IMG/VR virus record: IMGVR_UViG_3300025296_001443
DNA: 20,000 nucleotides
Origin: an uncultured virus (IMG/VR IMGVR_UViG_3300025296_001443)
Taxonomy: Duplodnaviria > Heunggongvirae > Uroviricota > Caudoviricetes
Direction: 5' to 3' (one strand)
The notes beneath the pieces were generated by a model, which searched no databases, had not been told where the DNA came from, and worked only from the letters and a program-made list of their open reading frames with translations. Numbering within the stretch: the stretch's first letter is position 1; every line of letters starts with the position of its first letter. Position numbers and translations under genes: made by a program. Below are positions 3,376-18,383 of this stretch, piece by piece.

Positions 3376-3768
3376 TTAATTCTTATTCGACAAGATTTTC
3401 TTTATTGTGTTCCAATCTTTCGCTAGAGCTTTTTCTTCCCATTCTTCCCGAGTTATACCTTTTGCTAAATCTTCTCCATCACAGCTGTCAAATAAATAAA
3501 TTTCTTTATCCTTTTTCACAATTATATAGACAAGACCTCCATGATAGGTATAAGACTTGTGCCATGCGATTTGCTCTATACTCAGTTTTAGTTTTAATTT
3601 GGTTTTTTCTCTTTTGGGGGACCGCAAATACTTTCCTTCCAACCAACCAGTTTGACCGTATGAGCAGTAGTGCACATCAGGAATTCCTCGTTCAATCTGT
3701 GTCTCAATTCTCTGAATAAAAAAATCGTTTAATTTTAATCTAATCGTTTGCCAGATTTTCTTTTCCAT
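3376..3768 (-). CDS. PD-(D/E)xK nuclease, VRR-NUC / Holliday-junction-resolvase-like
   Basis: 'RIE....GIPDV......GWLEGK' catalytic pattern and 'EQIAWH' helix; this family is a usual neighbour of phage polA. Confidence 0.8.
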   Translation of the reverse strand: MEKKIWQTIRLKLNDFFIQRIETQIERGIPDVHYCSYGQTGWLEGKYLRSPKREKTKLKLKLSIEQIAWHKSYTYHGGLVYIIVKKDKEIYLFDSCDGEDLAKGITREEWEEKALAKDWNTIKKILSNKN

Positions 3769-4516
3769 TAAACTTACATACCGGGATTGGTTTCATTTTA
3801 TGTAAATTCTTCTTTCTTATTTTTAAATATTTTTGATAATCAGGCTCTATTGGATTATTCATTAAGTATTCTATTTCTGAATAAGACATACCTAATTGAT
3901 CTACATCTTTTCTTCCGTCATTCCATAAACCATCAGTTGGTTGAGCGTTAATAATTTCATCTAATATTTTTAACTCTACAGCCATTTCCCATACTTGAGT
4001 TTTAGTACAATCAGCTAGTGGAGAAATATCAACACCTCCATCTCCATATTTTGTAAAAAAACCTACACCAAAGTCTTCAATTTTATTCCCTGTGCCTATC
4101 ACAATTCCTTTGGTACTAGCGGATATTTGATATAAACACATCATTCTCATTCTTGCTCTTGAATTAGCTAATCCCATTTTATCTGTAAATTTCATATCTA
4201 TCATTTGATTTTCAAAAGCTAAAAAAGTATGTGTTAAATCTATTTCAACACCATAACAATTTTGAAATTTAGTAGTTAACCAATTTTTATGTTTAATAGA
4301 TAAGTCATGATCTTCGGGCCTTTGAGAAATAGGCATTGATGCCACAAGTGTTTTAATTCCAGTTAGTCCACAAATAGTGCTTACTACTGATGAATCAACA
4401 CCTCCTGATATTCCTATTACTAAACAATTAGCAGGAGTATCCATACTTTCTACATAATCAATAAGCCATTTTCTAATAAAATTTATTCGCTCAAATGGAG
4501 TCATTATTTTTTCCAA
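3740..4516 (-). CDS. nadE: NH3-dependent NAD+ synthetase
   Basis: PP-loop 'GISGGVDS', plus 'NSRARMRM', 'GTGNKIE..VGFFTKYGDGGVDISPLAD..KTQV' and 'PTDGLW...D.DQLGMSY'. There is no glutaminase domain. Confidence 0.93.
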   Translation of the reverse strand: MEKIMTPFERINFIRKWLIDYVESMDTPANCLVIGISGGVDSSVVSTICGLTGIKTLVASMPISQRPEDHDLSIKHKNWLTTKFQNCYGVEIDLTHTFLAFENQMIDMKFTDKMGLANSRARMRMMCLYQISASTKGIVIGTGNKIEDFGVGFFTKYGDGGVDISPLADCTKTQVWEMAVELKILDEIINAQPTDGLWNDGRKDVDQLGMSYSEIEYLMNNPIEPDYQKYLKIRKKNLHKMKPIPVCKFNGKENLAND

Positions 4517-5762
4517 TCGGTATATATTTTACAGTATCTTTAACTTTTAAATATCTAAATGGATCAATAACTACAGAGCCCGGCATAAAATAAAATTCTT
4601 TCCAAGCTTCATGTTTAGTTCCTATAAAAAATAATTGAGGTTCTTTATCCCATTTATAAGTATCCTTTACTTTCATAATATCATTATCGTCTACCCAAGG
4701 ATCCCACATAGTAACTTCTTTACCTTTTTCTTTTAAAATATTTTTCAACAATATGGAAGGACTTCCTACTGTTAAATTAGTTTCAGGTTTAAAACATTTA
4801 CCTAGAATATTTATTTTTTTATCTTCAGCATATTTTATACATAAGTCAGCTAACCATTCAGTTTGAACTTCTCTTTGTTTCATTATATTATCATACCAAT
4901 TATAGGATAAATTTAATTTTTGAGCTAAATAACTCAGAGCTATATTATCTCTAGGATGACAACCCCCTCCATCTCCCATTCCACCTGTTAAATATTTAGG
5001 ACTTATAATTCTATCAGTGCATAAAGAAAGAGCTTTTGTTACATCATCAACATCAGTATTAGGTAAGTAATGACAAGTTTCCATAATAGTATTGATCATT
5101 GCTATCTTCGTTGAAATAAAAGTATTATAAACTACTTTTATTAATTCAGCATTTTCTAAAGTAGTTTCATGAAATGGAGCATCATTTATAGTTCTATAAA
5201 ATTCTTTAGCTTTTTCGGCAGCATTTTTATTATCTACTCCAAATAAAATAACTTCACTATTTAAAAAATCAGGAATAGTAGTACCCATTGCTATAAAGAA
5301 AGGATTATAACAAAGTTTTAAATGTTTTCCTAATATTGGTTTAATAAGTTTTGTAATAGTACCAGGAAGAACAGTAGATATAATAACCACAACTTTATCT
5401 TTTCCCTGTTTTTCGATTTCTTCATTTAAATCTTTTATTCCTTTTACTAAATAATCATAATTAAAGTCTGCTCTTTCTTTAGGTATTCTTGTTATACCTT
5501 CATATTTTTCTTCATGAGGAGTTTGAATTGGAACAAATATAATATCACTTTCTTCAACAATATTATTTATAGGTTTTAATTGTAGTTTAGATTTTTGTAA
5601 TAACTCAATAGCATCTTCTTCTTTATATGTTAAAGTTTTAAATCTAATATCACGAAGTGTACGATCATTAATATCTGTTCCTATAACAGTATGACCTTTA
5701 CTTTCACATGCTAAAGCTACTGGTAGACCAAGTTTTCCTAAACCAATAAAACCTATTTTCAT
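4491..5762 (-). CDS. ugd: UDP-glucose/GDP-mannose 6-dehydrogenase family protein (divergent)
   Basis: Rossmann 'IGFIGLGKLG', 'ISTVLPG', 'AELIKVVYN' (catalytic Lys/Asn), 'GGGCHPRD' (catalytic Cys268) and a C-terminal 'LGKCFKPET' domain. The substrate is uncertain. Confidence 0.88.
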   Translation of the reverse strand: MKIGFIGLGKLGLPVALACESKGHTVIGTDINDRTLRDIRFKTLTYKEEDAIELLQKSKLQLKPINNIVEESDIIFVPIQTPHEEKYEGITRIPKERADFNYDYLVKGIKDLNEEIEKQGKDKVVVIISTVLPGTITKLIKPILGKHLKLCYNPFFIAMGTTIPDFLNSEVILFGVDNKNAAEKAKEFYRTINDAPFHETTLENAELIKVVYNTFISTKIAMINTIMETCHYLPNTDVDDVTKALSLCTDRIISPKYLTGGMGDGGGCHPRDNIALSYLAQKLNLSYNWYDNIMKQREVQTEWLADLCIKYAEDKKINILGKCFKPETNLTVGSPSILLKNILKEKGKEVTMWDPWVDDNDIMKVKDTYKWDKEPQLFFIGTKHEAWKEFYFMPGSVVIDPFRYLKVKDTVKYIPIGKNNDSI

Positions 5763-7604
5763 TTATTTTGCGTTACCCCAATTGTCTCCTTTCTCGACAT
5801 CCACCTTAAGAGGCACTTTCAACTTTACGCAAGTTTTCATGATTTGTAAAGCTTCTTCAAAACATTTTTGTTTATTCCAAGGAATTGAAAAATCTAATTC
5901 ATCGTGAATAGTTAATTTTAAATCAATCTCATCTAATAAACCTGCTTCATATATTTTTATCATTGCAGATTTTGTAATATCTGCTGATGAACCTTGAATT
6001 AAAGCATTTAATGCAGTATGAGTATAAGCTCTTTTAAGTTCTTGTTTAGGATAATGGGAATAGGCTTCTGATAAAGAATAGGCTCTTTCTCCCCAACTAT
6101 CTCTAGGTTCCCATAAATCAAATCTTCTTTTTCTTCCTAATAAAGTTTTAATGTAACCTCTACTCCCTGCTATATGCGATACTTGTCTTGATAGTTCTCT
6201 AACAAAAGGTACTCTACTATGATATTGATTAAATAATTCATAAGCTTGATCTTGTTCTAATCCTAATTGTGCTGCTAATTTTTTATTTCCCATACCATAA
6301 AATAATCCTAAATTAATAGTCTTGGCTTGCTTTCTTTCTATACCTGCCATATTAGCTACCATTTGATGAAAGTCTGTTTTATCATTTCTACAAAATTCTT
6401 TTTGGACTTGTAAAGCACTCTTCATATCTTTAAGACAAGCATAATGTATTAATACTCTAGGTTCTTGTTGAGAATAATCAGCACAATGCCATTCTGAATC
6501 TTCTTCAGGTATAAATAAACTTCTGATCATCGGACCAAGTTCAGGGTCTCTAGCTGGTACTTGTTGAAGATTAGGATATTGAGAACTAAATCTTCCTGTA
6601 ACTGTACCCATTGGATTAAAACTACAATGTATACGACCATTAACAGATTTATCAATAATCATATTTTTAATAAATGTATTTCGTATCTTGTCTAATTTAC
6701 GAATATTTAAAATACTTTGACTAACATCGTCCACTTGAGTTTCCAACCAAGCTGCAGTGAAAGATGGAGTACCTTTTGCGGTGTAGTTATATTTAATGTT
6801 ATTTTTATCATATGCTTCCTTTAAGGAGGCGTTTGCCCATACATTAACTATGGTTCCTCCTAAAGTATTTAGTCGTGATTGCATATGAATTTGTTTTTTT
6901 TCTAATTCGTTATATAATTTATGTGCTTTATCAACATCAACTCTTACTCCTTTTTTTCTCATATGAAATAGAACAGGTATAAGTCTTGATTCAAATTTAA
7001 TTATATCTTCAACACCTTCTCTCTTTATTCTTTCTTGTTGTTTTTGATATATCTGTAAAGTAAGTAAAGCATCTTCTTTAGCATATTCACTTACTTCATT
7101 AGCATGTAATCTCCATAAATTTTCTTTTACTTTAGCACGTTTACCAAACTTATATAAGACAGCTTGTTCGAGTTCAACTTCGTATTTAGATTTTCTTAAA
7201 TAAAACTTTGCTAAAGAGTTTAATGAATACTTTAATTTATTTTCATCAAGTAGATGTTCTATGGAAAGTACATCTAAAATCTCGTGACTACGAGTAAGGG
7301 TAAGTCGCTTATCCAGTGAATAAAGCCACTCTACGTCATACATTGCGTTAGCAAATATAAGCTTTTTCTTCTTTGAGTAAATATATAATAAAAAACTAAT
7401 TACTTTTTCTTTATTTAAATTTCCACCGCCTTGATGTTTAATTGGAAAATATTCATTATATCCACTATCAGTTGCAATAGAAATACTTGCTATAAAACCA
7501 TCTTTTCTAAAACCACCTGGTCCCATTGTTTTAAGATTAGGATCACAGGTCTCTGTATCTATTGCTATTAAATTTGCTTCATCTATTTTATTTACATTAA
7601 ACAT
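5763..7604 (-). CDS. polA: phage family A DNA polymerase with 3'-5' exonuclease domain
   Basis: ExoI 'IDTET', 'TGRFSS..PNLQQVP', motif A 'DYSQQEPR', motif B 'RKQAKTINLGLFYG' and motif C 'IHDEL'. There is no 5'-3' exonuclease domain. Confidence 0.96.
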   Translation of the reverse strand: MFNVNKIDEANLIAIDTETCDPNLKTMGPGGFRKDGFIASISIATDSGYNEYFPIKHQGGGNLNKEKVISFLLYIYSKKKKLIFANAMYDVEWLYSLDKRLTLTRSHEILDVLSIEHLLDENKLKYSLNSLAKFYLRKSKYEVELEQAVLYKFGKRAKVKENLWRLHANEVSEYAKEDALLTLQIYQKQQERIKREGVEDIIKFESRLIPVLFHMRKKGVRVDVDKAHKLYNELEKKQIHMQSRLNTLGGTIVNVWANASLKEAYDKNNIKYNYTAKGTPSFTAAWLETQVDDVSQSILNIRKLDKIRNTFIKNMIIDKSVNGRIHCSFNPMGTVTGRFSSQYPNLQQVPARDPELGPMIRSLFIPEEDSEWHCADYSQQEPRVLIHYACLKDMKSALQVQKEFCRNDKTDFHQMVANMAGIERKQAKTINLGLFYGMGNKKLAAQLGLEQDQAYELFNQYHSRVPFVRELSRQVSHIAGSRGYIKTLLGRKRRFDLWEPRDSWGERAYSLSEAYSHYPKQELKRAYTHTALNALIQGSSADITKSAMIKIYEAGLLDEIDLKLTIHDELDFSIPWNKQKCFEEALQIMKTCVKLKVPLKVDVEKGDNWGNAK

Positions 7605-8068
7605 TAATTTAATTTTCCTAAAATAAAATTAATATTTATATAAGCCCAATCTCTATCTGTCATACACCATAATCTTTCAGCATCTTTATGAATATACTTT
7701 TCTCCAAATACAATATTTTTAGCTGAAGTATTTAAAAGTAATTTAACACAATGAATACAAGGACTCACTGTAAGATAAACAGTATGAATATCATACACAT
7801 CTTTACATTGAAGTAATGCGTTTTGCTCAGCATGTATTGCTTCGCATTTATCTAAATCTTTTCCACTTGTGGAATTTGCTCCTTTACAAGGATTATCTAA
7901 ACAATGAGAAAATCCACTAGGATTTCCATTATATCCAGTTGCTAATACATGATTTTTTTTATTTACTAAAATACAACCAACTTTTCTTCTGACACAAGTT
8001 CCTCTTTCTGAGACTAATAAAGCCATTCTTAAAAAATAAAAATCAGCTGGTTGTCTATAATTAGCCAT
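7604..8068 (-). CDS. dCMP deaminase family protein
   Basis: 'C.RRKVGC', 'TGYNG', and zinc ligands 'HAEQNA' and 'PCIHC'. Confidence 0.93.
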   Translation of the reverse strand: MANYRQPADFYFLRMALLVSERGTCVRRKVGCILVNKKNHVLATGYNGNPSGFSHCLDNPCKGANSTSGKDLDKCEAIHAEQNALLQCKDVYDIHTVYLTVSPCIHCVKLLLNTSAKNIVFGEKYIHKDAERLWCMTDRDWAYININFILGKLN

Positions 8069-8894
8069 ATATTAAATAATCTAATCTTTCTGAAAGTAAT
8101 CCATTAGGTCTTAATTCGTTACCTGTTACATCTGCCATTTCCCATAAAATATCAATAAATTTAGTAGGAGTTTTTTTATACTTTTCAATAAGATTATTTA
8201 AATTAAAATCTTTATCATCATAATTACTTTTAAATATATTATCTAATTTACTAAAATCATTTTCATAGACATGTCTACTTCCTGCTTGTATATTTAATTC
8301 ACCTAATTTACATTTTAATCCACGTAAATTTAACCAACAAATTATATAAAAAGAGATTGCACTAAAGTTAAAAGTATCATAAGGAGTACCTAACCAGCCG
8401 TCATTACTTCTCATACTAGCAATCGTATGTAACCATAACTCATCACTTGCTTCTCTTAATAAAAATTGTAAAGATAAAGTACAAGGAATATCTTTACTTG
8501 ATCTAGGATTCTCTCTCCATATATTTATAACAGCTTGTCTACTATCATTATCTTTTATTAAAGTATCAATTATATATGAAGTTTGAGTAATGATTTTAGG
8601 ACCATAAGCTCCAAAAAAAGTTACACCATCATCACTAAATCTTTTAACTCCATCAACATATTTAGATACACTTGCAACATCATTTCTACCGCTTAACATC
8701 CATGCTGCTTCACCAAACATAAAACTATAAGATAATTTTCTTTCAGGTATAGTTATAATAGGGTCTTCCATACCTATTTTAAAAGAGTGATTAATTTTTT
8801 CTTTTATATTTAATCCTCTAGGTTTACACATAAACTCAGAACGATTATAAATATCCTCTAACATTTTTTTATATCTAATATTGGTTTCTTTCAT
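8061..8894 (-). CDS. thymidylate synthase-family enzyme, dCMP hydroxymethylase-like
   Basis: 'EAAWMLSG', 'AYGP', 'SRQAVI', 'DIPCT' (Cys138), 'MRSND..LGTPYD' (Asp173 at the base-specificity site) and 'GSRHVYE'. Confidence 0.88.
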   Translation of the reverse strand: MKETNIRYKKMLEDIYNRSEFMCKPRGLNIKEKINHSFKIGMEDPIITIPERKLSYSFMFGEAAWMLSGRNDVASVSKYVDGVKRFSDDGVTFFGAYGPKIITQTSYIIDTLIKDNDSRQAVINIWRENPRSSKDIPCTLSLQFLLREASDELWLHTIASMRSNDGWLGTPYDTFNFSAISFYIICWLNLRGLKCKLGELNIQAGSRHVYENDFSKLDNIFKSNYDDKDFNLNNLIEKYKKTPTKFIDILWEMADVTGNELRPNGLLSERLDYLIYG

Positions 8895-8896
8895 AT

Positions 8897-9103
8897 TTAT
8901 TTTTGATCCTTTTCATCTAAATAAGATTTAACTAATATTTTTATTAATTTAGACATTGAAAATCCTCTTTTCATACAATGTTTTTTTAATCTAGCGTGTA
9001 GTTCAGCTCCTAAACATAAACCCATAACTCCATATCTTCTTGTTGGACTTATAAGTTTTGGTTTTTTTGGCTCTACCAGTTTATCTATTTCATTTATATT
9101 CAT
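8897..9103 (-). CDS. ribbon-helix-helix (CopG/Arc-like) DNA-binding protein
   Basis: Beta-strand 'MGLCL' followed by two helices, 'ELHARLKKHC..RGFSMSKLIKILVKSYL'. Confidence 0.7.
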   Translation of the reverse strand: MNINEIDKLVEPKKPKLISPTRRYGVMGLCLGAELHARLKKHCMKRGFSMSKLIKILVKSYLDEKDQK

Positions 9104-9292
9104 TTAATATTTCACTTTAATTTTATTAGTATCTATCCATTTTGCTAAATTATTTCCTTTTTTATTTTTATACATACATAAAACATTCATTTTAGGAAAT
9201 TTAAGAACTAAAGATTGTAACATTTTTTTAAAAGACATTGCCTCTATCGTTTCTTCTTTATCTTTAGTTTTAATTTTATAAGTGTATCGCAT
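9104..9292 (-). CDS. hypothetical small basic phage protein
   Basis: 62-aa ORF that abuts or overlaps both neighbours. Confidence 0.7.
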   Translation of the reverse strand: MRYTYKIKTKDKEETIEAMSFKKMLQSLVLKFPKMNVLCMYKNKKGNNLAKWIDTNKIKVKY

Positions 9293-9848
9293 AATTTTTC
9301 ATAATTTTATTAGTGAATTCATCTAATTTGTATCCATCTTTAAACATATCATATCTCATAAAATCTTTTCTGTCACGCAGAGGCGATAGCGTGGATAAAA
9401 AATTACTTCGATCAGGTTTACCGAACCAATGATAGTAATAATAATCTACTACTTTATCAATATTATGATATTCTTCATGTCTTAATTCTCTATTAATTCT
9501 ATGATTTTCTTTTACTCTTTCAATATCTTCTGGAATACACCATACATAAAAAGTTTTTTGATCTTTTAATCTATTATATAAAAACCTAGGATTATAACTA
9601 GGTCCATTTCTATAAATATAAGCATAGCATTGTTCACTTGGCCAATGTCTATCTAATAAAACTAATTTTCCTTCTAATTTTTTTCTAATAGCATATCTAG
9701 CACTAGCTGTATGCCACAATTTCATATTCTTATGAACTCTTAAATGCATATAATAAGAGTTTTTATATTTCTTTTTTATATGATTAATTAAAGTAGTTTT
9801 ACCTACACCATCTGGTCCATCAAAAATTATTATTCCATTAGTAGACAT
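9276..9848 (-). CDS. thymidylate/dNMP kinase-like P-loop protein
   Basis: 'IIIFDGPDGVGKTT' Walker A and 'LLDRHWPSE' (the DR motif of TMP kinases). Confidence 0.82.
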   Translation of the reverse strand: MSTNGIIIFDGPDGVGKTTLINHIKKKYKNSYYMHLRVHKNMKLWHTASARYAIRKKLEGKLVLLDRHWPSEQCYAYIYRNGPSYNPRFLYNRLKDQKTFYVWCIPEDIERVKENHRINRELRHEEYHNIDKVVDYYYYHWFGKPDRSNFLSTLSPLRDRKDFMRYDMFKDGYKLDEFTNKIMKNYAIHL

Positions 9849-10858
9849 TTAAAAAATTCTTTCGTTCTTTCTTTCGACCAAAATTTATTTCTTAAAATTT
9901 CAGCTTGATTATTAAATACTTTAATTAACTCATCACTGCTACAATTTTCTAACTTTTCAAGATCATGATAAAAACCTAATACTTTAGTTTCTTCAGGATG
10001 ACCATAAATAATACAACCAGCATCTAATGCCATTTTATATCTTACTCTCCACCAACCACTCCCTTGTAAAGTATGATAATGTGGTGGACTTATTATTCCC
10101 CATATTTTACAGTACTCGGCAAATAATTCATGTTCTTTTAATCTTATCTGTCCTTCTTTTATATTTCCATAAGTTTTCACAGGCCAATTAAAATATTGAT
10201 GTTTTAACCAGTTTTGTTTACTTACTAAACTAGCACAAGCCCATTCTTTTTTTCTTTCGTGAGATTGACTTGAAAATAAATTTATTAAATCAGGATGATC
10301 TAAATGTAAATCACAATAAATTGAAGGATCCCAATTTATAATTTCTTTAGCCCTCATTCCTAAAGTTTCATAATTACCACCATCATATGCTGGAATTAAA
10401 AGTTTATAAGGCCATTCTTCAAAAGCGAATGTATCTACAAAATCTTCTATTTCTTTTTTATAAGCTTGAGCCTCATCCCAATTAACTTTTCCTACTGGAT
10501 TTCCTGCTTTACTTAATTTTTTCCATATTCTCCAATGACCTCTACTAAAAGTTCCAAAACCACTTACTGAATCTTTAGTTTGCCAATCATCTATTGATAC
10601 AATAGCATCGGGTCTTTTAATTAAAGTATATGCTGCACCATACCAGAAACGTGCTGATAAACTATTAGGACCAAATACAAATACAAAAACTTTATCATAT
10701 TGAGAAACATTTTCTCCCGGGACGATTGCTTTTTGAGTTACATCATGCCCTAAATCTTTTAAAACTTTTGGTAATATTCTAGCTGATGTAGATATATTTA
10801 ATGTACTTCTTGCTGTACCTACAGCTAATGCATTAAAGCCTGTTATTAATATTTTCAT
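9830..10858 (-). CDS. putative GT-B fold (DNA) glycosyltransferase
   Basis: Start moved to MKILITG at 10858. N-terminal 'MKILITG...LKDLGHDVT...YDKVFV' and C-terminal 'WGIISPP....SGWWRVRY.MALDAGCII' match the two-Rossmann GT-B layout. About 340 aa, similar in size to phage DNA glucosyltransferases. Fold inferred by eye. Confidence 0.6.
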   Translation of the reverse strand: MKILITGFNALAVGTARSTLNISTSARILPKVLKDLGHDVTQKAIVPGENVSQYDKVFVFVFGPNSLSARFWYGAAYTLIKRPDAIVSIDDWQTKDSVSGFGTFSRGHWRIWKKLSKAGNPVGKVNWDEAQAYKKEIEDFVDTFAFEEWPYKLLIPAYDGGNYETLGMRAKEIINWDPSIYCDLHLDHPDLINLFSSQSHERKKEWACASLVSKQNWLKHQYFNWPVKTYGNIKEGQIRLKEHELFAEYCKIWGIISPPHYHTLQGSGWWRVRYKMALDAGCIIYGHPEETKVLGFYHDLEKLENCSSDELIKVFNNQAEILRNKFWSKERTKEFFKCLLME

Positions 10859-11279
10859 TTTGTTCTTTCTCTTCCTCAACAATTTGATCTATATTAGGAG
10901 CTTGCCAACCTTTAGGTTTAATTACATCAAATGCTGTTCCTCGTTTTTTTGATTTACTTTTAGCTCTTACTTTTTTCATATTAGCTGTTTGTACTGCTTT
11001 CCAAGCTTTTTCAAAAGGTAAATTAAATAACCAGGCAGTACCTAAAGCTATATAAACTATATCAATAAGAGCATCTAATGCTGCAGCATCGTCTTTTTTA
11101 GTTATAGCTTGAGTATATTCAGCTAATTCTTCCATTAAAAAAGAAGTTCTAAAATTAACTAATTCAGAATCATCGGGTATTCCTACTTTTTCATTCTTTT
11201 TAAAACCAAATTTATTATGAAATCTATTTATATCTCCTAATAAATCTTCGTGTAAATTAAAAATATCTGAATTTTTCAT
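10833..11279 (-). CDS. MazG-like all-alpha NTP pyrophosphohydrolase (DR2231/dUTPase-like)
   Basis: 'FH.KFG', 'EELAEY', 'DALIDIVY.A.G', 'AV..ANM.K' and 'KPKGW.AP' motifs. Confidence 0.88.
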   Translation of the reverse strand: MKNSDIFNLHEDLLGDINRFHNKFGFKKNEKVGIPDDSELVNFRTSFLMEELAEYTQAITKKDDAAALDALIDIVYIALGTAWLFNLPFEKAWKAVQTANMKKVRAKSKSKKRGTAFDVIKPKGWQAPNIDQIVEEEKEQNENINNRL

Positions 11280-11449: not shown

Positions 11450-11636
11450 ATTTTTTAAATGCCATTCTCCAAAGCCATGATCTTGTAATAGATACTCCTG
11501 TAAATATTAAAGCAATTCCAATACTATCCATAATGGTTGGATATAATCCAAAAAATGGAAAAATATAAAGCTGTATTAATATAGCTAAAATAAATCCTGA
11601 TCCCACATCTATAAAACTTTCTATAAAACTTCTCAT
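11442..11636 (-). CDS. small two-TM membrane protein (family often found next to phage methyltransferases)
   Basis: 'S.IES..DV.SGF...' with two hydrophobic segments and 'S..RSW.WR..F'; ATGA-coupled to the MTase. Confidence 0.75.
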   Translation of the reverse strand: MRSFIESFIDVGSGFILAILIQLYIFPFFGLYPTIMDSIGIALIFTGVSITRSWLWRMAFKKYE

Positions 11637-12691
11637 AATAAACTTTCTTGTGTCGGTGCCTTTCTAAAATCTATAATTTGTAAATCTTCTTCTTTTTTAT
11701 TCTTCTCTTTAATACTACTTTTTATTATTCTCGATACATATTCAGCGACAGGTGGCATTACTCCTCTTGCAATTTGTGATCCTATACTAGAAGCTGGTCC
11801 TTCCCATTTATAATCTACTGGAAAACCTGCCATATAAGCTAATTCTTTATGACCAAATAATCTATCTTGAGTAGGATGTATATAAAATCCTCCTGCTATA
11901 ACTGGTATATGTGCATTTTCTTTTAATCTCCATTTCATAAATTGAGGTCTCCCTTTTACTCCTCCACGCATTCCTCCTCTCACCCAAGTTTCAGGTGGAT
12001 TATACCTTTCCCATGTTACTCTTAAACTTTCTCCTTGTTTACAATATTTAAGATAAGGTTTTTCATTTTCTCCTAACTTCATTAAATGTCCTACATCTGA
12101 TCCGTGTTCCTTTTTAAATTGAGCTAAAACTTCTCCAGTTGTAGGTAATGGTTGAAAATTTAAAGAACGTGCATTTAATCCATATTTAGTTGCTATAAAG
12201 AAAAATCTTTTTCTACTATGATTTAAACCAGTAAAGCCTCCATCAATTAATAAGTGAGTAACTTGATAATTTAATTTATTTGCTTCTTTAGTTAATTCCA
12301 TAATCATTGGATATCCTCCATTTTTAGAGTAAATTCGAGGAACTGATTCAATAGCTAAAGCTGTAGGATTTAATTCTTTTAAAAGATTAAAACTATTTCT
12401 CCAACACGCAATTCTAGGATCATCTCTCCATGCTCCTGCTCCTTTCTGTCCTCCTCCTAAATTAGACCAGGGAGCACAAGGAGGATTACAATAAACAAAA
12501 TCAATTTTATTTTTAAATTTTTTTCTAGGCCATTCTTCTTCACCTTCATATACAGGAATATTTGGAAAATTAGCTTTAAAAGTTTTTTTATATAAACCAG
12601 GTTTCATTTCAAAATGAGCTTCAACATCAAAATGTTTACTTACTCCTAAAGTAAATCCACCTGCAAATATGTAACTTCCTAATGCTTTCAT
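11633..12691 (-). CDS. divergent C5-cytosine DNA methyltransferase homolog (possible carboxymethyltransferase)
   Basis: Motif I 'YIFAGGF', IV 'PPCAPWS', VI 'ESV', VIII 'HSRKRFF', IX 'ELAYMAGFP..Y' and X 'QIARGV.PP'. Confidence 0.87.
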   Translation of the reverse strand: MKALGSYIFAGGFTLGVSKHFDVEAHFEMKPGLYKKTFKANFPNIPVYEGEEEWPRKKFKNKIDFVYCNPPCAPWSNLGGGQKGAGAWRDDPRIACWRNSFNLLKELNPTALAIESVPRIYSKNGGYPMIMELTKEANKLNYQVTHLLIDGGFTGLNHSRKRFFFIATKYGLNARSLNFQPLPTTGEVLAQFKKEHGSDVGHLMKLGENEKPYLKYCKQGESLRVTWERYNPPETWVRGGMRGGVKGRPQFMKWRLKENAHIPVIAGGFYIHPTQDRLFGHKELAYMAGFPVDYKWEGPASSIGSQIARGVMPPVAEYVSRIIKSSIKEKNKKEEDLQIIDFRKAPTQESLL

Positions 12692-16689: not shown

Positions 16690-17475
16690 CTAAAATGGTG
16701 TTTTAGTATTTGTTTCCTTCGATGAAGATGAATCAGTATCTACTGGTTCAGAAGCTTTTACTTTACCTTCAGATACTGAATCTGAAAGAGCTTCAGCTTG
16801 AGCAAATATTTCTTTCTTCAATACTGTACCTACTTCTTCTAATTTATATTTAAACCAACTGCCTAAATCATTTTCTGCATTTACAGTTGCTAATTTAAAC
16901 ATATATAAAAATGAAGGTGGTTCTACCATCTGACCTTTTATATTCATCTTTTTCATTTTAAGAAGTGTATTCCACTTTCTTGAAACTGAAAGATTACTAG
17001 ATGTCATCGTTAAAACTGCAGGTTCAAACGATTTATCTTTTTTAACTAAAACGAAATGTTCAGCTGTATCAACTATTTGATTTTCACCTAACATTGACTT
17101 TCTAGTTTTGGGATCAGTTTTAGTTCCTTCAGGTTTCATATCATGTACTGCTACAAGACCTCCCCCTTTTTCTCTAGGTACCCATTCTACATAGGACTTT
17201 CTATATCCACAAGGTATAACTGTAATCGAATCACTATGTAATTGATTAGTAACTGTATTAAAGATATTACCTTCTTCAGCACCCTCAATATATTTTTCAT
17301 CTTTCTTTTTTCTTTGAGGTGAGCCGGCTTGTACTATTGCTAATCTAGGAATAGTAATATCATCATTAGTGATATTTTCTAAACCACGACCAGCAGCTTG
17401 AATAATTAAATCACCTGAAATATCGCCTGTTGCGATTTCATTTTGTGATTTAACTGCTACTTGTTTATTCGCCAT
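16690..17475 (-). CDS. putative phage single-stranded DNA-binding protein
   Basis: 'G.E.....D..IPRL..VQ..SPQ', 'YVEW.PR...GG.V', 'SRKWN' and 'N..GSWF', with a tail ending in 'PF'. It sits inside the replication module. Confidence 0.7.
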   Translation of the reverse strand: MANKQVAVKSQNEIATGDISGDLIIQAAGRGLENITNDDITIPRLAIVQAGSPQRKKKDEKYIEGAEEGNIFNTVTNQLHSDSITVIPCGYRKSYVEWVPREKGGGLVAVHDMKPEGTKTDPKTRKSMLGENQIVDTAEHFVLVKKDKSFEPAVLTMTSSNLSVSRKWNTLLKMKKMNIKGQMVEPPSFLYMFKLATVNAENDLGSWFKYKLEEVGTVLKKEIFAQAEALSDSVSEGKVKASEPVDTDSSSSKETNTKTPF

Positions 17476-17476
17476 A

Positions 17477-18061
17477 TTATTTCTCCTTTCCGAGTTTAAC
17501 TTTTGCTATACTGGCTTCGTATACAGAAAAATATTCTTCAGGTAATGTTTCACCTAAACTATATCTTTCTTTAGCAAAAGCTTTTAATGTGCCAGCATGA
17601 ACTGAAGATTTTTCGTCATAAGGTATATTTTTAAAATTTTTATTTAATACCTTAATTAGTTTATCCGCTTCATCATACTCGCCTTTTGCAAAACTAACTT
17701 TAACATCATGTTTAATTAGTTCGCTATGTCCATTTTTTTCTAACCATGTAAGAGCACCTGCTCTTTTATCTTCTGGTATAGAACAAAATAAATCATCTTT
17801 AACTGAAATTTGACTGCCATCGGCTAAATCAAATCTAGTCATATTATTACATGACGCCATCGCATCAGGTAATTCTTTTTCTTCAATCTCACGAATTTCA
17901 ACTTTTAATTCTTTAAGTCTTTCTTCTTCCTTCATAAGATTTTTCTTTTTTTTTATAAGTTTATTTCCAATAGCTGTAACTATTTCTAATCCACCTTTTG
18001 GTAAACTTTCTTTCTTCTTGTGTTTTTCGACTGAATCGAATATCCAAGTTTCTTTACTCAT
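17477..18061 (-). CDS. conserved phage replication-module protein (gp33-like, coiled-coil N-terminus)
   Basis: Start moved to MSKETW at 18061 (AAGGAG RBS). Shows the pattern 'LPDAM', 'WLEKNGH..LIK..V', 'VH..TLKAF.KE...G..LP'. Confidence 0.72.
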   Translation of the reverse strand: MSKETWIFDSVEKHKKKESLPKGGLEIVTAIGNKLIKKKKNLMKEEERLKELKVEIREIEEKELPDAMASCNNMTRFDLADGSQISVKDDLFCSIPEDKRAGALTWLEKNGHSELIKHDVKVSFAKGEYDEADKLIKVLNKNFKNIPYDEKSSVHAGTLKAFAKERYSLGETLPEEYFSVYEASIAKVKLGKEK

Positions 18062-18383
18062 TACTTTCTCCTTTCTGATAAAGATCAATCTTTACATTAT
18101 AATAACATTTATTTTCTCTATCCCATTTTAACATATTTACTTTTCCATTATTAATATCCGAGGCTACCATTGAAGCAATTCCAATAGCAACTGGATCACC
18201 CATTGCAAGTAAAAAATCTTTATCATTAAAATCTTTTAATTTATTTTTTAATAATTTTTCAACTGGTGATGATGAAAGAGTAATTTGTCGACCTGGTGGT
18301 AGTAATGGAATTAAATCTCCAAAACGACCAGCCCCAATAACATTTACATTTGGATTTTCTTGTACTATGTAAACTTTAGCCAT
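18054..18383 (-). CDS. conserved hypothetical phage protein, first gene of the leftward operon
   Basis: 109 aa, AAGGAG RBS; motif pattern 'VYIVQE', 'FG.L..LLP', 'DFLL.MGDP' and 'LKWDR....Y'. Confidence 0.8.
   Translation of the reverse strand: MAKVYIVQENPNVNVIGAGRFGDLIPLLPPGRQITLSSSPVEKLLKNKLKDFNDKDFLLAMGDPVAIGIASMVASDINNGKVNMLKWDRENKCYYNVKIDLYQKGESNE

What the first reader, a model, noticed from the sequence alone, without database searches (positions are those of the whole stretch)
11633..12691. C5-MTase homolog with motif X Asn->Arg: predicted DNA cytosine carboxymethyltransferase
Seen: the catalytic PC and motif VIII RxR are intact. Motif X reads QIA-R-GV instead of the canonical QIG-N-(A/S)V (Arg309, codon 11765-11767). 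Motif I is YIFAGG instead of FxGxGG, and motif VI is ESV instead of ENV. Established: replacing this motif X Asn with a basic residue (M.MpeI N374K, Dcm N436K) lets C5-MTases use carboxy-SAM to form 5-carboxymethylcytosine. From memory, a natural phage enzyme of this kind has also been reported. Inference: this enzyme transfers carboxymethyl or another non-methyl group. No CmoA-like Cx-SAM synthase lies in the window, so the cofactor would come from the host or from elsewhere in the genome.
Basis: partly seen in the sequence, partly recalled or inferred. Interest (0 to 1): 0.85.

Follow-up and report, generated by a model that had tools for sequence, protein, structure and literature searches.

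The report
Odd cytosine-methylase-like enzyme of hmC phages
A marine phage gene that looks like a DNA cytosine methyltransferase carries the arginine that marks carboxymethyl-transferring enzymes, but it belongs to a separate, unstudied phage-only family that always travels with the genes for hydroxymethylcytosine DNA, so its chemistry is probably something else and is still unknown.

Summary
ORF 11633-12691(-) is a 352-aa C5-MTase-fold protein with intact PC, Glu and RxR. It has Arg309 (AGA, 11765-11767) at the motif X Asn position, which is Arg350 of the published phage carboxymethyltransferase CmoX. It also has YIFAGG, NPPCA and ESV in place of FxGxGG, GPPCQ and ENV.

The carboxymethyl reading is poorly supported. 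The protein is no closer to CmoX than to M.HaeIII and lacks CmoX's SPPC. No Cx-SAM synthase (CmoA) turned up in 0 of 44 related phage records, 15 of them at least 90% complete. Under the same kind of test, 63 of 80 CmoX-like loci had one.

In 253 homologues the position reads R161, Q47, K37, D3, G1, with 4 gaps and never N, and it changed at least 25 times on the tree.

The family is almost entirely phage-borne. It always sits with a dCMP-hydroxymethylase-type ThyA homologue (15 of 15 near-complete genomes). In relatives it is fused to the neighbouring T4 beta-glucosyltransferase-like protein, to a class-I methyltransferase, to a UDG or to a 5-hmdU-kinase domain.

Best reading (about one in three): an hmC-pathway enzyme acting on 5-substituted cytosine in phage DNA. 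Earlier scan notes saw the same odd partner in other genomes.

The parts
11633..12691 (-). C5-MTase-like protein, 352 aa; member of a phage family marked by NPPCA / ESV / motif X R, K or Q
   Evidence: AF2 model pLDDT 95.3; Foldseek matches DNA C5-MTases
12656..12673 (-). motif I YIFAGG (canonical FxGxGG; first Gly replaced by Phe)
12473..12487 (-). motif IV NPPCA with catalytic Cys72 (canonical GPPCQ; SpCmoX SPPCS)
12341..12349 (-). motif VI ESV (canonical ENV)
12206..12214 (-). motif VIII RKR (RxR)
11765..11767 (-). codon AGA = Arg309, at the motif X Asn position (SpCmoX R350)
10833..11279 (-). MazG/PRA-PH-type nucleotide pyrophosphohydrolase (candidate dCTPase role)
   Evidence: conserved neighbour in 18 of 27 distant loci
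9830..10882 (-). GT-B glycosyltransferase, T4 beta-glucosyltransferase-like; fused C-terminally to the MTase-like domain in 13 relatives
9276..9848 (-). P-loop dNMP-kinase-like protein
8061..8894 (-). ThyA homologue with dCMP hydroxymethylase signature (L143D, C146, D169 kept, N177D in E. coli ThyA numbering)
   Evidence: criteria from PMC13326640
7604..8068 (-). dCMP deaminase
4491..5762 (-). nucleotide-sugar (UDP-glucose-type) dehydrogenase, probable sugar-donor tailoring
3740..4516 (-). NadE-type PP-loop amidoligase (NAD synthase family)
   Evidence: shares only the PP-loop with SpCmoY

Best explanation
The gene encodes a member of a distinct, essentially phage-only branch of the C5-cytosine methyltransferase fold. 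This branch is an integral part of a T4-like hydroxymethylcytosine (hmC) / glycosyl-hmC DNA modification module. Shown: the fold; the intact covalent-catalysis set (Cys72, Glu115, Arg160/Arg162); a remodelled shell around the transfer site (Phe9, Asn69, Ala73, Ser116, Arg309); obligate co-occurrence with a dCMP-hydroxymethylase-type ThyA homologue; and fusion in relatives to the neighbouring T4 BGT-like glycosyltransferase, to class-I methyltransferases, to UDG and to a 5-hmdU-DNA-kinase domain. Inferred: the phage replaces C by 5hmC at the nucleotide level (MazG-like, hydroxymethylase, kinase). The enzyme then works after replication on that DNA. It flips a 5-substituted cytosine, attacks C6 with Cys72, and uses the resulting activation to alter the C5 hydroxymethyl substituent, by exchange or derivatisation through an exocyclic-methylene-type intermediate. 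This would run alongside or ahead of the glycosyltransferase. Arg309 (Lys or Gln in relatives) would line the pocket that holds the C5 substituent or the incoming group, and would not bind a Cx-SAM carboxylate. The transferred or exchanged group is not known.
For: A ThyA-like gene occurs in 40 of 43 records that carry the family and in 15 of 15 records at least 90% complete. 62 of 65 ThyA-like neighbours have D/C/D/D at the L143/C146/D169/N177 positions and 1 has E/C/D/D; 2 are partial. PMC13326640 links this pattern to cytosine-specific hydroxymethylation. The best solved relative is MilA CMP hydroxymethylase, 1.1e-25, against 2.9e-07 for the best thymidylate synthase. Synteny across 27 distant loci (31-39% identity) keeps the ThyA-like gene (24/27), MazG (18/27), kinase (17/27) and dCMP deaminase (18/27) beside the gene. 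The one member on a large MAG contig also has the ThyA-like, MazG-like and kinase-like genes within 8 kb. Fusions: 13 proteins carry the window's 9830-10882 domain C-terminal to the MTase-like domain, E 2.8e-53 to 8.2e-35. That domain folds as GT-B, with T4 beta-glucosyltransferase the best TM (0.56/0.58), and all listed hits of the 38 with E <= 1e-3 are glycosyltransferases. Of 42 long members scanned, 11 carry Methyltransf_23, 3 UDG and 2 HMUDK_hel. The family is nearly absent from cells: 3 loci in 185,579 species genomes. It is absent from the two groups of cultured-phage hits checked. The pocket residues are family-invariant. Ordinary C5-MTases do take 5hmC into the active site, form covalent complexes, lose formaldehyde and couple thiols to it in vitro (PMC7176277 passages; PMC11347137 passages).
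Against: There is no natural precedent for such an enzyme. Motif I (A10, G11, G12, F13) and the motif II acid Glu28 are at least 90% conserved, which argues that a nucleoside cofactor such as SAM is still bound, and the hmC-directed chemistry shown in vitro needs none. Fusions may reflect only co-recruitment of DNA-modifying enzymes and not consecutive chemistry. That the virion DNA contains hmC is inferred from gene signatures and was not measured. No coordinates were available to inspect the pocket. T4-type phages manage hmC without such a protein.
Confidence: 0.33

Rival explanations
1. An ordinary SAM-dependent 5-methylcytosine methyltransferase with unusual motif variants. It caps cytosines that escaped replacement by hmC, or marks particular sites, in the phage genome.
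For: Every catalytic motif of PF00145 is present, and the model superposes on DNMT1/MET1, HaeIII and HhaI. No cofactor-synthesis gene is found in any of 15 near-complete genomes, so the cofactor should be a universal metabolite such as SAM. A basic residue at this position is compatible with methylation: M.MedI-N377K gave more than 99% protection with SAM (PMC12015181). Cofactor motifs I and II are conserved.
Against: A stand-alone 5mC methylase is useful to any phage, yet this family is found only beside a dCMP hydroxymethylase (15/15). Four residues lining the methyl-transfer site are invariantly non-canonical, and Asn never occurs at motif X although it is one base change from Lys. Plain methylation leaves both facts unexplained.
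Confidence: 0.22
2. One reading: a CmoX-like DNA cytosine C5-carboxymethyltransferase that draws Cx-SAM from the host.
For: R309 aligns with SpCmoX R350, which contacts the carboxymethyl group in PDB 8YF3, and R350N is inactive. The conserved motif IV Gly is replaced by a polar residue in both proteins (S in CmoX, N here). 198 of 253 family members have R or K. SpCmoX can use host Cx-SAM in E. coli. A PP-loop amidoligase (NadE type) lies 7 kb away.
Against: CmoA is found in 0 of 44 related phage records with a working positive control, against 63 of 80 SpCmoX-like loci. No CmoA or CmoY hit occurs among 4190 ORFs from the window and 78 related loci. The motif is NPPC, not SPPC. Identity to SpCmoX is 20%, and the family profile scores 8YF3 no better than HaeIII. 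51 members have Q, D or G, with at least 25 switches, and they sit in the same context. Only E. coli among 14 control genomes passes the CmoA cut-off, and 0 of 61 genomes in the order of the one MAG that holds a near-identical fragment pass it. The NadE-like protein scores as a genuine NAD synthase and shares only the PP-loop with CmoY.
Confidence: 0.1
3. An enzyme aimed at unmodified (host) cytosine DNA, to which the phage's own hmC DNA is immune because C5 is occupied. It would be an analogue of T4's C-DNA-specific functions. It could add a bulky group, or promote C-to-U deamination, with uracil excision to follow.
For: This explains why only hmC-making phages carry the family. Three relatives fuse it to a UDG domain, and one has UDG as a neighbour. 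The catalytic Cys is invariant while the cofactor shell is altered. That C5-MTases deaminate C when SAM is lacking is recalled, not taken from a call.
Against: The far more frequent fusions are to a glycosyltransferase (13) and a class-I methyltransferase (11), and these act on the phage's own DNA. Conserved cofactor motifs argue for group transfer. No accompanying nuclease was seen.
Confidence: 0.13
4. A transferase that moves another part of ordinary SAM (for example the aminocarboxypropyl group), or a group from a still unknown cofactor, onto C5 of cytosine. Arg, Lys or Gln at motif X would bind that group.
For: It needs no phage-encoded cofactor synthase. Motif I is altered where the methionine part of SAM lies. 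A long polar or basic side chain is required at motif X. In some relatives a class-I methyltransferase-fold domain of unknown role is fused or adjacent, and it might remodel a cofactor, but it is not CmoA-like. The precedent of MTase-fold enzymes transferring aminocarboxypropyl to carbon (Tyw2) is recalled.
Against: There is no direct evidence, it does not explain the dependence on the hmC pathway, and no such DNA base is known.
Confidence: 0.07

Closest known systems
CmoX, DNA cytosine C5-carboxymethyltransferase of Synechococcus phage S-B43 (PDB 8YF3; PMC12783734)
   Same: Phage-encoded C5-MTase fold. Arg at the motif X Asn position. The motif IV Gly is replaced by a polar residue. PC, Glu and RxR are intact.
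   Different: 20% identity. NPPCA/ESV here against SPPCS/ENV. No CmoA or CmoY partner (0/44 records against 63/80 and 47/80 loci). The Arg is interchangeable with K or Q in this family. The context is an hmC pathway, which 0 of 80 CmoX-like loci show.
Engineered M.MpeI N374K / M.MedI N377K carboxymethyltransferases (PMC12015181)
   Same: A basic residue replaces the motix X Asn.
   Different: These are single engineered changes in otherwise canonical CpG methylases, and M.MedI-N377K still methylates fully with SAM. Here four further pocket residues differ. M.MpeI (4DKJ) is only a weak match, 1.4e-04, to the family profile.
Canonical bacterial C5-MTases M.HaeIII and M.HhaI
   Same: Best sequence and fold matches, with the same two-domain architecture and catalytic residues.
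   Different: FxGxGG, GPPCQ, ENV-K/R and GN(S/A)V are all altered. The gene is not part of a restriction-modification system, and the family is nearly absent from cellular genomes.
T4 glucosyl-hmC system (gp56, gp42, gp1, alpha/beta-glucosyltransferases)
   Same: The window has a MazG-type pyrophosphohydrolase, a gp42-like hydroxymethylase signature, a dNMP-kinase-like protein, a dCMP deaminase and a BGT-like GT-B enzyme.
   Different: The T4 stretch inspected around genes 56, 42 and b-gt lists no C5-MTase-like gene. That T4 has none anywhere is recalled. Here the gene is a constant member of the module.
Phage methyltransferase + TET (5mYOX) + glycosyltransferase hypermodification systems (PMC8256090; bioRxiv 2023.12.21.572611; search listings and abstract starts only)
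   Same: A phage C5-MTase works in one pathway with DNA glycosyltransferases that decorate 5hmC.
   Different: In those systems 5hmC is made on DNA by methylation plus oxidation. Here a nucleotide-level hydroxymethylase is present. No Tet_JBP family was reported among the ORFs scanned with Pfam (window; the other parts of the 91%-complete relative). The relative does have three generic 2OG-Fe(II) oxygenases elsewhere.

Membership tests
DNA C5-cytosine methyltransferase superfamily (PF00145) | Profile match above the curated cut-off over the whole domain | tested here: met
   93.9 bits against cut-off 22; 10-323 of 324 positions
DNA C5-cytosine methyltransferase superfamily (PF00145) | Motif IV Pro-Cys nucleophile, motif VI Glu, motif VIII RxR | tested here: met
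   Cys72, Glu115, Arg160/Arg162; invariant or nearly so in 253 homologues
DNA C5-cytosine methyltransferase superfamily (PF00145) | Two-domain MTase fold | tested here: met
   AF2 pLDDT 95.3, pTM 0.93; Foldseek E 1.6e-18 to MET1 and TM 0.64-0.72 to HaeIII/HhaI
DNA C5-cytosine methyltransferase superfamily (PF00145) | Canonical SAM-site motifs (FxGxGG, ENV, motif X GN) | tested here: not met
   YIFAGG, ESV and A-R-G instead. The motif II acid Glu28 is kept.
DNA C5-cytosine methyltransferase superfamily (PF00145) | Transfers methyl from SAM to cytosine C5 | not testable with these tools
   needs an enzyme assay
CmoX (Cx-SAM-dependent DNA carboxymethyltransferase, PMC12783734) | Arg at the position of M.HhaI Asn304 / SpCmoX Arg350 | tested here: met
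   BLASTP and HMMER alignments
CmoX (Cx-SAM-dependent DNA carboxymethyltransferase, PMC12783734) | SPPC motif, used by the authors together with R350 to call candidates | tested here: not met
   NPPC here and in 245 of the 253 homologues (NPPCA 235; other NPPC variants 9; NPPCQ 1); authors' criterion
CmoX (Cx-SAM-dependent DNA carboxymethyltransferase, PMC12783734) | [quoted passage not shown] | tested here: not met
   0 of 44 records; positive control 115.6 bits; 63 of 80 CmoX-like loci have it
CmoX (Cx-SAM-dependent DNA carboxymethyltransferase, PMC12783734) | AMP-forming amide ligase (CmoY type) nearby | tested here: not met
   no SpCmoY homologue in 4190 ORFs; the NadE-like protein shares only the PP-loop
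CmoX (Cx-SAM-dependent DNA carboxymethyltransferase, PMC12783734) | Uses Cx-SAM and forms 5cxmC | not testable with these tools
   needs an assay with Cx-SAM, or expression in cmoA+ and delta-cmoA cells
NPPCA/ESV C5-MTase-like family of hmC phages (defined here) | NPPCA, ESV, motif X R/K/Q; motif I aromatic at the first Gly | tested here: met
   query signature and family counts
NPPCA/ESV C5-MTase-like family of hmC phages (defined here) | Co-occurrence with a dCMP-hydroxymethylase-type ThyA homologue | tested here: met
   window gene 8061-8894; 40/43 records and 15/15 near-complete; signature
T4-type hmC / glycosyl-hmC pathway (context) | ThyA homologue with N177D and L143D/E and with D169 kept | tested here: met
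   criteria from PMC13326640
T4-type hmC / glycosyl-hmC pathway (context) | DNA glycosyltransferase | tested here: inconclusive
   GT-B fold with T4 BGT the best TM and language-model look-alikes. hhalign to T4 BGT gives only 29% probability over 58 columns. A DNA substrate is not shown.
T4-type hmC / glycosyl-hmC pathway (context) | hmC actually present in virion DNA | not testable with these tools
   needs nucleoside LC-MS; no cultured member was found

The most novel reading that the evidence does not exclude
A C5-methyltransferase fold has been recruited in nature to work on 5-hydroxymethylcytosine already in DNA. It would use Cys-C6 covalent activation to exchange or extend the hydroxymethyl group, and so produce a cytosine hypermodification that has not yet been described chemically, in abundant uncultured marine and other phages.
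Probability: 0.3. Interest if true: 0.85.

Novelty: new variant of a known kind. Interest (0 to 1): 0.62.

Why it matters
Phage DNA hypermodification has repeatedly yielded new chemistry and tools, including glucosyltransferases for 5hmC mapping and carboxymethyltransferases for methylation sequencing. This family has at least 278 clusters at 50% identity with E <= 1e-30. It is constant in non-T4 hmC phages and sometimes intein-bearing. It has the full covalent machinery of a cytosine methylase, yet it sits in genomes whose cytosine C5 should already be occupied. Its substrate could be residual C, hmC or host DNA. Whichever it is, the answer should settle how these phages complete or diversify cytosine modification, and could provide a new enzyme for site-directed DNA derivatisation. 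The case also shows that 'Arg at motif X' alone is not a safe predictor of Cx-SAM use.

Tried and rejected
(1) CmoA in the same genome. The window's own assembly is not held. The nearest record G001 and 43 other related records were searched with TIGR00740, with no hit.

(2) The fused class-I methyltransferase domains as hidden Cx-SAM synthases. None of 11 hits the CmoA models at E <= 0.01; the best matches are weak and UbiG-like, and one is a weak CmoB hit at 3.8e-04. This is not excluded as an analogous enzyme, and the domain is absent from this phage clade.

(3) The NadE-like protein as a CmoY analogue. It scores as true NAD synthase, TIGR00552 at 156 bits, and shares only the PP-loop with SpCmoY. 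Rejected as evidence.

(4) The kinase neighbours as 5-hm-pyrimidine DNA kinases. 12 cluster members were scanned and none hit HMUDK_hel. Rejected.

(5) A two-residue deletion in motif I, my own first impression. HMMER aligns motif I to HaeIII without indels. Rejected.

(6) Cultured relatives. tblastn against 50,697 phage records gave 32 weak hits below 24% identity. The Flavobacterium group (SPPCS/ENV/G-M-S) and HCTV-16 (GPPC/ENV/GNAV) are not family members. Yersinia phage P37 was not inspected.

(7) Sequence-only identification of the 350-aa neighbour. Pfam and the PDB profile search found nothing. It was resolved only by fold.

(8) Literature. Searches found no description of a C5-MTase-like partner of dCMP hydroxymethylase. 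PMC8670742 has no occurrence of the methyltransferase terms I searched.

(9) Complex prediction for the MTase-like/GT-like pair was not available, so nothing was folded.

(10) Host inference. A 3.1-kb contig binned in a Marinoscillum MAG holds a 93%-identical N-terminal fragment. This is weak, and it was used only for a CmoA survey.

(11) DNMT3-type methylases having Arg at this position is my recollection. DNMT3 did not appear in the PDB searches, so it is not used as evidence.
Full report
OBSERVATION. The minus-strand ORF 11633-12691 encodes 352 aa. It is translationally coupled to its neighbours by ATGA overlaps at both ends. It matches Pfam DNA_methylase over the whole profile (93.9 bits). 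HMMER alignments to M.HaeIII and plant DNMT1/MET1 and direct translation give these motifs: motif I YIFAGG (HaeIII FSGAGG), motif IV NPPCA (GPPCQ), motif VI ESV (ENV), motif VIII RKR, and motif X QIARGVMPP (DNMT1 QIGNAVPPP). Codon 309 is AGA at 11767-11765.

THE KNOWN COMPARATOR. A natural phage DNA cytosine C5-carboxymethyltransferase, CmoX of Synechococcus phage S-B43, was published in December 2025 (PMC12783734; I read the abstract, Results, Discussion and some passages). In its crystal structure with Cx-SAM (8YF3), Arg350 replaces M.HhaI Asn304 and contacts the carboxymethyl group. R350N is dead, and the wild type accepts only Cx-SAM. The phage encodes its own Cx-SAM synthase CmoA and an amide ligase CmoY. 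The authors called 5,615 candidates by SPPC plus R350 and counted 4,257 CmoA genes on those contigs. BLASTP of the window protein against SpCmoX, taken from the S-B43 record, gives 20% identity and E 9e-11, and it aligns R309 with R350.

IT IS NOT A CmoX-CLADE PROTEIN. A word-indexed search (123 hits) and an exhaustive phmmer search (2,324 hits at E <= 1e-3, 278 at <= 1e-30, the best 150 listed) gave 253 distinct homologues at 29-90% identity. In their alignment NPPCA occurs in 235 and ESV in 247. The motif X position reads R161, Q47, K37, D3, G1, with 4 gaps and never Asn. SpCmoX itself has SPPCS and ENV. A profile of 59 family members scores M.HaeIII (2.9e-28) and 8YF3 (1.2e-26) about equally. 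The AF2 model (pLDDT 95.3) matches MET1/DNMT1, HaeIII and HhaI first, with 8YF3 at rank 15 (TM 0.62/0.66). On a FastTree of 247 sequences the motif X residue changed at least 25 times among R, K, Q, D and G. It co-varies with position 118, where the canonical basic residue after ENV is kept in the K and Q forms and lost in the R forms. It also co-varies with position 153, which is aromatic in R forms and acidic in K forms. A long polar side chain is therefore required, but a positive charge at exactly this site is not.

NO Cx-SAM SUPPLY. The window's own assembly is not held. With the CmoA model TIGR00740 I found no match in the nearest record (0/1), in five longer relatives (0/5, one of them 91% complete), or in 38 records of more distant family members (0/38, 14 of them at least 90% complete). 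The same tool finds SpCmoA in S-B43 at 115.6 bits. phmmer with SpCmoA and SpCmoY against 4,190 ORFs of the window plus 78 related loci found nothing at E <= 0.01. As a matched control, 80 SpCmoX-like IMG/VR loci (86-97% identity, many of them short) gave CmoA in 63, CmoY in 47 and a ThyA-like gene in 0. The 91%-complete relative has no class-I methyltransferase-fold gene at all. Host supply cannot be excluded. However, only E. coli among 14 control genomes passes the CmoA cut-off, and 0 of 61 genomes do so in the order of the one MAG that contains a near-identical gene fragment (this is a weak host hint). The phage is AT-rich (26.5-29.7% GC). Its PolA is closest (41-44%) to HTVC023P-type pelagiphages.

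WHAT THE GENE TRAVELS WITH. Pfam, PHROGs and NCBIfam show the window to be a replication and nucleotide module. In order it holds: primase, exonuclease, UvrD-like helicase, the MTase-like gene, DUF7220, a MazG/PRA-PH pyrophosphohydrolase, a 350-aa protein of unknown family, a dNMP-kinase-like P-loop protein, a weakly scoring ThyA homologue, dCMP deaminase, PolA, a nucleotide-sugar dehydrogenase and a NadE-type amidoligase.

The ThyA homologue's best solved relative is MilA CMP hydroxymethylase (1.1e-25, against 2.9e-07 for the best thymidylate synthase). It aligns with T4 gp42. It has Asp at the L143 and N177 positions and keeps D169. According to PMC13326640 (passages and section 28), this pattern marks cytosine-specific hydroxymethylases rather than thymidylate synthases or 5-hydroxy-dCMP synthases.

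The 350-aa protein has no sequence-family hit. Its model (pLDDT 85.9) is a GT-B glycosyltransferase: all listed hits among the 38 Foldseek matches at E <= 1e-3 are glycosyltransferases, and T4 beta-glucosyltransferase gives the best TM (0.56/0.58). Language-model look-alikes include T4-Gluco-transf clusters. hhalign to T4 BGT is weak, at 29% probability.

The window thus encodes a T4-like pathway for hmC and probably glycosyl-hmC.

THE ASSOCIATION IS GENERAL. I clustered ORFs from the window and 78 related loci. In the 27 loci whose MTase-like protein is only 31-39% identical, the ThyA-like gene lies within 10 kb in 24, MazG in 18, the kinase in 17, dCMP deaminase in 18 and PolA in 18, usually directly adjacent. 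In whole records, PF00303 is found in 40 of 43, and in 15 of 15 that are at least 90% complete. 62 of 65 ThyA-like neighbours share the D/C/D/D signature, 1 has E/C/D/D, and 2 are partial. Members with Q or K at motif X sit in the same context.

The family is almost absent from cellular genomes. A scan of 185,579 species gave 3 loci: two small MAG contigs, and one Dehalococcoidia contig that again carries ThyA-like, MazG-like and kinase-like genes beside it. Among 50,697 deposited phage records only 32 weak matches appear. The two groups I inspected are ordinary or SPPC-type methylases, not family members. So no cultured representative, and no chemical analysis of such DNA, was found.

FUSIONS. 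I scanned 42 long family members. Eleven carry a C-terminal Methyltransf_23 domain, 3 a UDG domain, 2 the helical domain of 5-hmdU DNA kinase, and 5 an intein with a LAGLIDADG endonuclease inserted at the catalytic NPP|C. Thirteen proteins carry, C-terminal to the MTase-like domain, a domain homologous to the window's GT-like protein (E 2.8e-53 to 8.2e-35). All fused forms have Arg at motif X, except one Q and one K. The fused class-I methyltransferase domains are not CmoA-like. In loci the same partners also occur as neighbours: a sugar epimerase/dehydratase, UDG and Methyltransf_23.

INTERPRETATION. Shown: this is a bona fide C5-MTase fold with all residues for covalent attack on C6 of a cytosine-type base; its transfer-site shell is remodelled in a family-constant way; and it is functionally tied to nucleotide-level synthesis of hmC and to enzymes that decorate a C5 handle on DNA.

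Inferred: the enzyme acts after replication on the phage's own DNA. Cytosine C5 is then already substituted, and a free-standing methylase or carboxymethylase would have no reason to occur only in hmC phages. I therefore think the most likely substrate is 5hmC itself. Cys72 addition at C6 would allow exchange or extension of the hydroxymethyl group. Ordinary C5-MTases show weak reactivity of this kind in vitro: thiol coupling and hydroxymethylation (PMC7176277), and covalent complexes with 5hmC and loss of formaldehyde (PMC11347137). I put this at about one in three.

The main argument against it is the good conservation of motifs I and II, which points to a bound nucleoside cofactor.

The rivals are as follows. 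A plain SAM methylase that caps residual cytosines (0.22). It is helped by the finding that M.MedI-N377K still methylates fully with SAM, but it leaves the obligate hmC linkage and the invariant odd pocket unexplained. An enzyme aimed at unmodified host DNA, to which hmC DNA is immune (0.13). Transfer of another SAM-derived or unknown group (0.07).

PRIOR NOTES AND LITERATURE. Earlier notes of this scan, on other genomes, describe hmC-glycosylation clusters with an 'unexplained' or 'odd' cytosine-methylase-like partner (e1-1067944, e1-5977057), and a sugar-modified hmC cluster sharing a few words with this protein (e1-6265167). They are unchecked leads. My family-wide counts agree with them. 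Six full-text searches found no paper describing this family or its linkage to dCMP hydroxymethylase. Subscription journals are not covered, and the supplements of the CmoX paper, which may list candidates lacking SPPC, were not read.

LIMITS. Presence of hmC in the virion is inferred from gene signatures. The neighbourhood counts use my own simple ORF caller and BLAST clustering. The 80 control loci are close relatives of a single CmoX.

Noticed in passing
window 7604-11279 (-): A T4-like hmC precursor set in an HTVC023P-like siphophage: MazG-type pyrophosphohydrolase, dNMP-kinase-like protein, ThyA homologue with hydroxymethylase signature (L143D, N177D, D169 kept) and dCMP deaminase, plus a BGT-like GT-B glycosyltransferase with no Pfam family (phrog_14998).
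   Followed up: yes
window 3740-5762 (-): A nucleotide-sugar (UDP-glucose-type) dehydrogenase directly upstream of a NadE-type PP-loop amidoligase. The 87%-identical relative G002 also has an NAD-dependent epimerase/dehydratase next to them, which this window lacks. This suggests an acidic or amidated sugar donor (uronic acid or uronamide) for DNA glycosylation. An earlier scan note proposed xylose in another genome.
   Followed up: partly
relatives P0140, P0152, P0185, P0192, P0230: Inteins with LAGLIDADG homing endonucleases are inserted exactly at the catalytic NPP|C of the MTase-like domain (query residue about 71-72), so the catalytic Cys would serve as the +1 extein residue. This is unusual for a methylase and hints that the gene is important to the phage.
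   Followed up: partly
family alignment, query residues 118, 153, 309: The motif X residue co-varies with the residue after ESV and with the residue eight before the first Arg of RxR. R forms lack the canonical basic residue after ENV and have an aromatic at 153. K forms keep Arg118 and often have Asp or Glu at 153. The three positions probably line one pocket.
   Followed up: partly
G002 (L089:16093-19755, + strand): The 91%-complete relative carries a carbamoyltransferase flanked by three 2OG-Fe(II) oxygenase genes on the opposite strand, inside the structural region. This could be another tailoring cassette (carbamoylation of a hydroxyl) or an unrelated auxiliary gene set.
   Followed up: no
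L078:8938-11389 and L067:2302-3330 / 5407-6435: One distant phage has two tandem paralogues of the MTase-like gene (355 and 475 aa). Another short record with inverted terminal repeats has a copy in each repeat.
   Followed up: no
P0124, P0129, P0146, P0163, P0166, P0169, P0178, P0204, P0187, P0208: Many long family members (about 700-1100 aa) carry 350-650 further residues with no Pfam match and no similarity to the window's GT-like protein. These are unexplored partner domains.
   Followed up: partly
window 16690-18383 (-): Three consecutive genes match Pam3 gp34-, gp33- and gp32-like families of unknown function. They are conserved next to the primase in most related loci.
   Followed up: no
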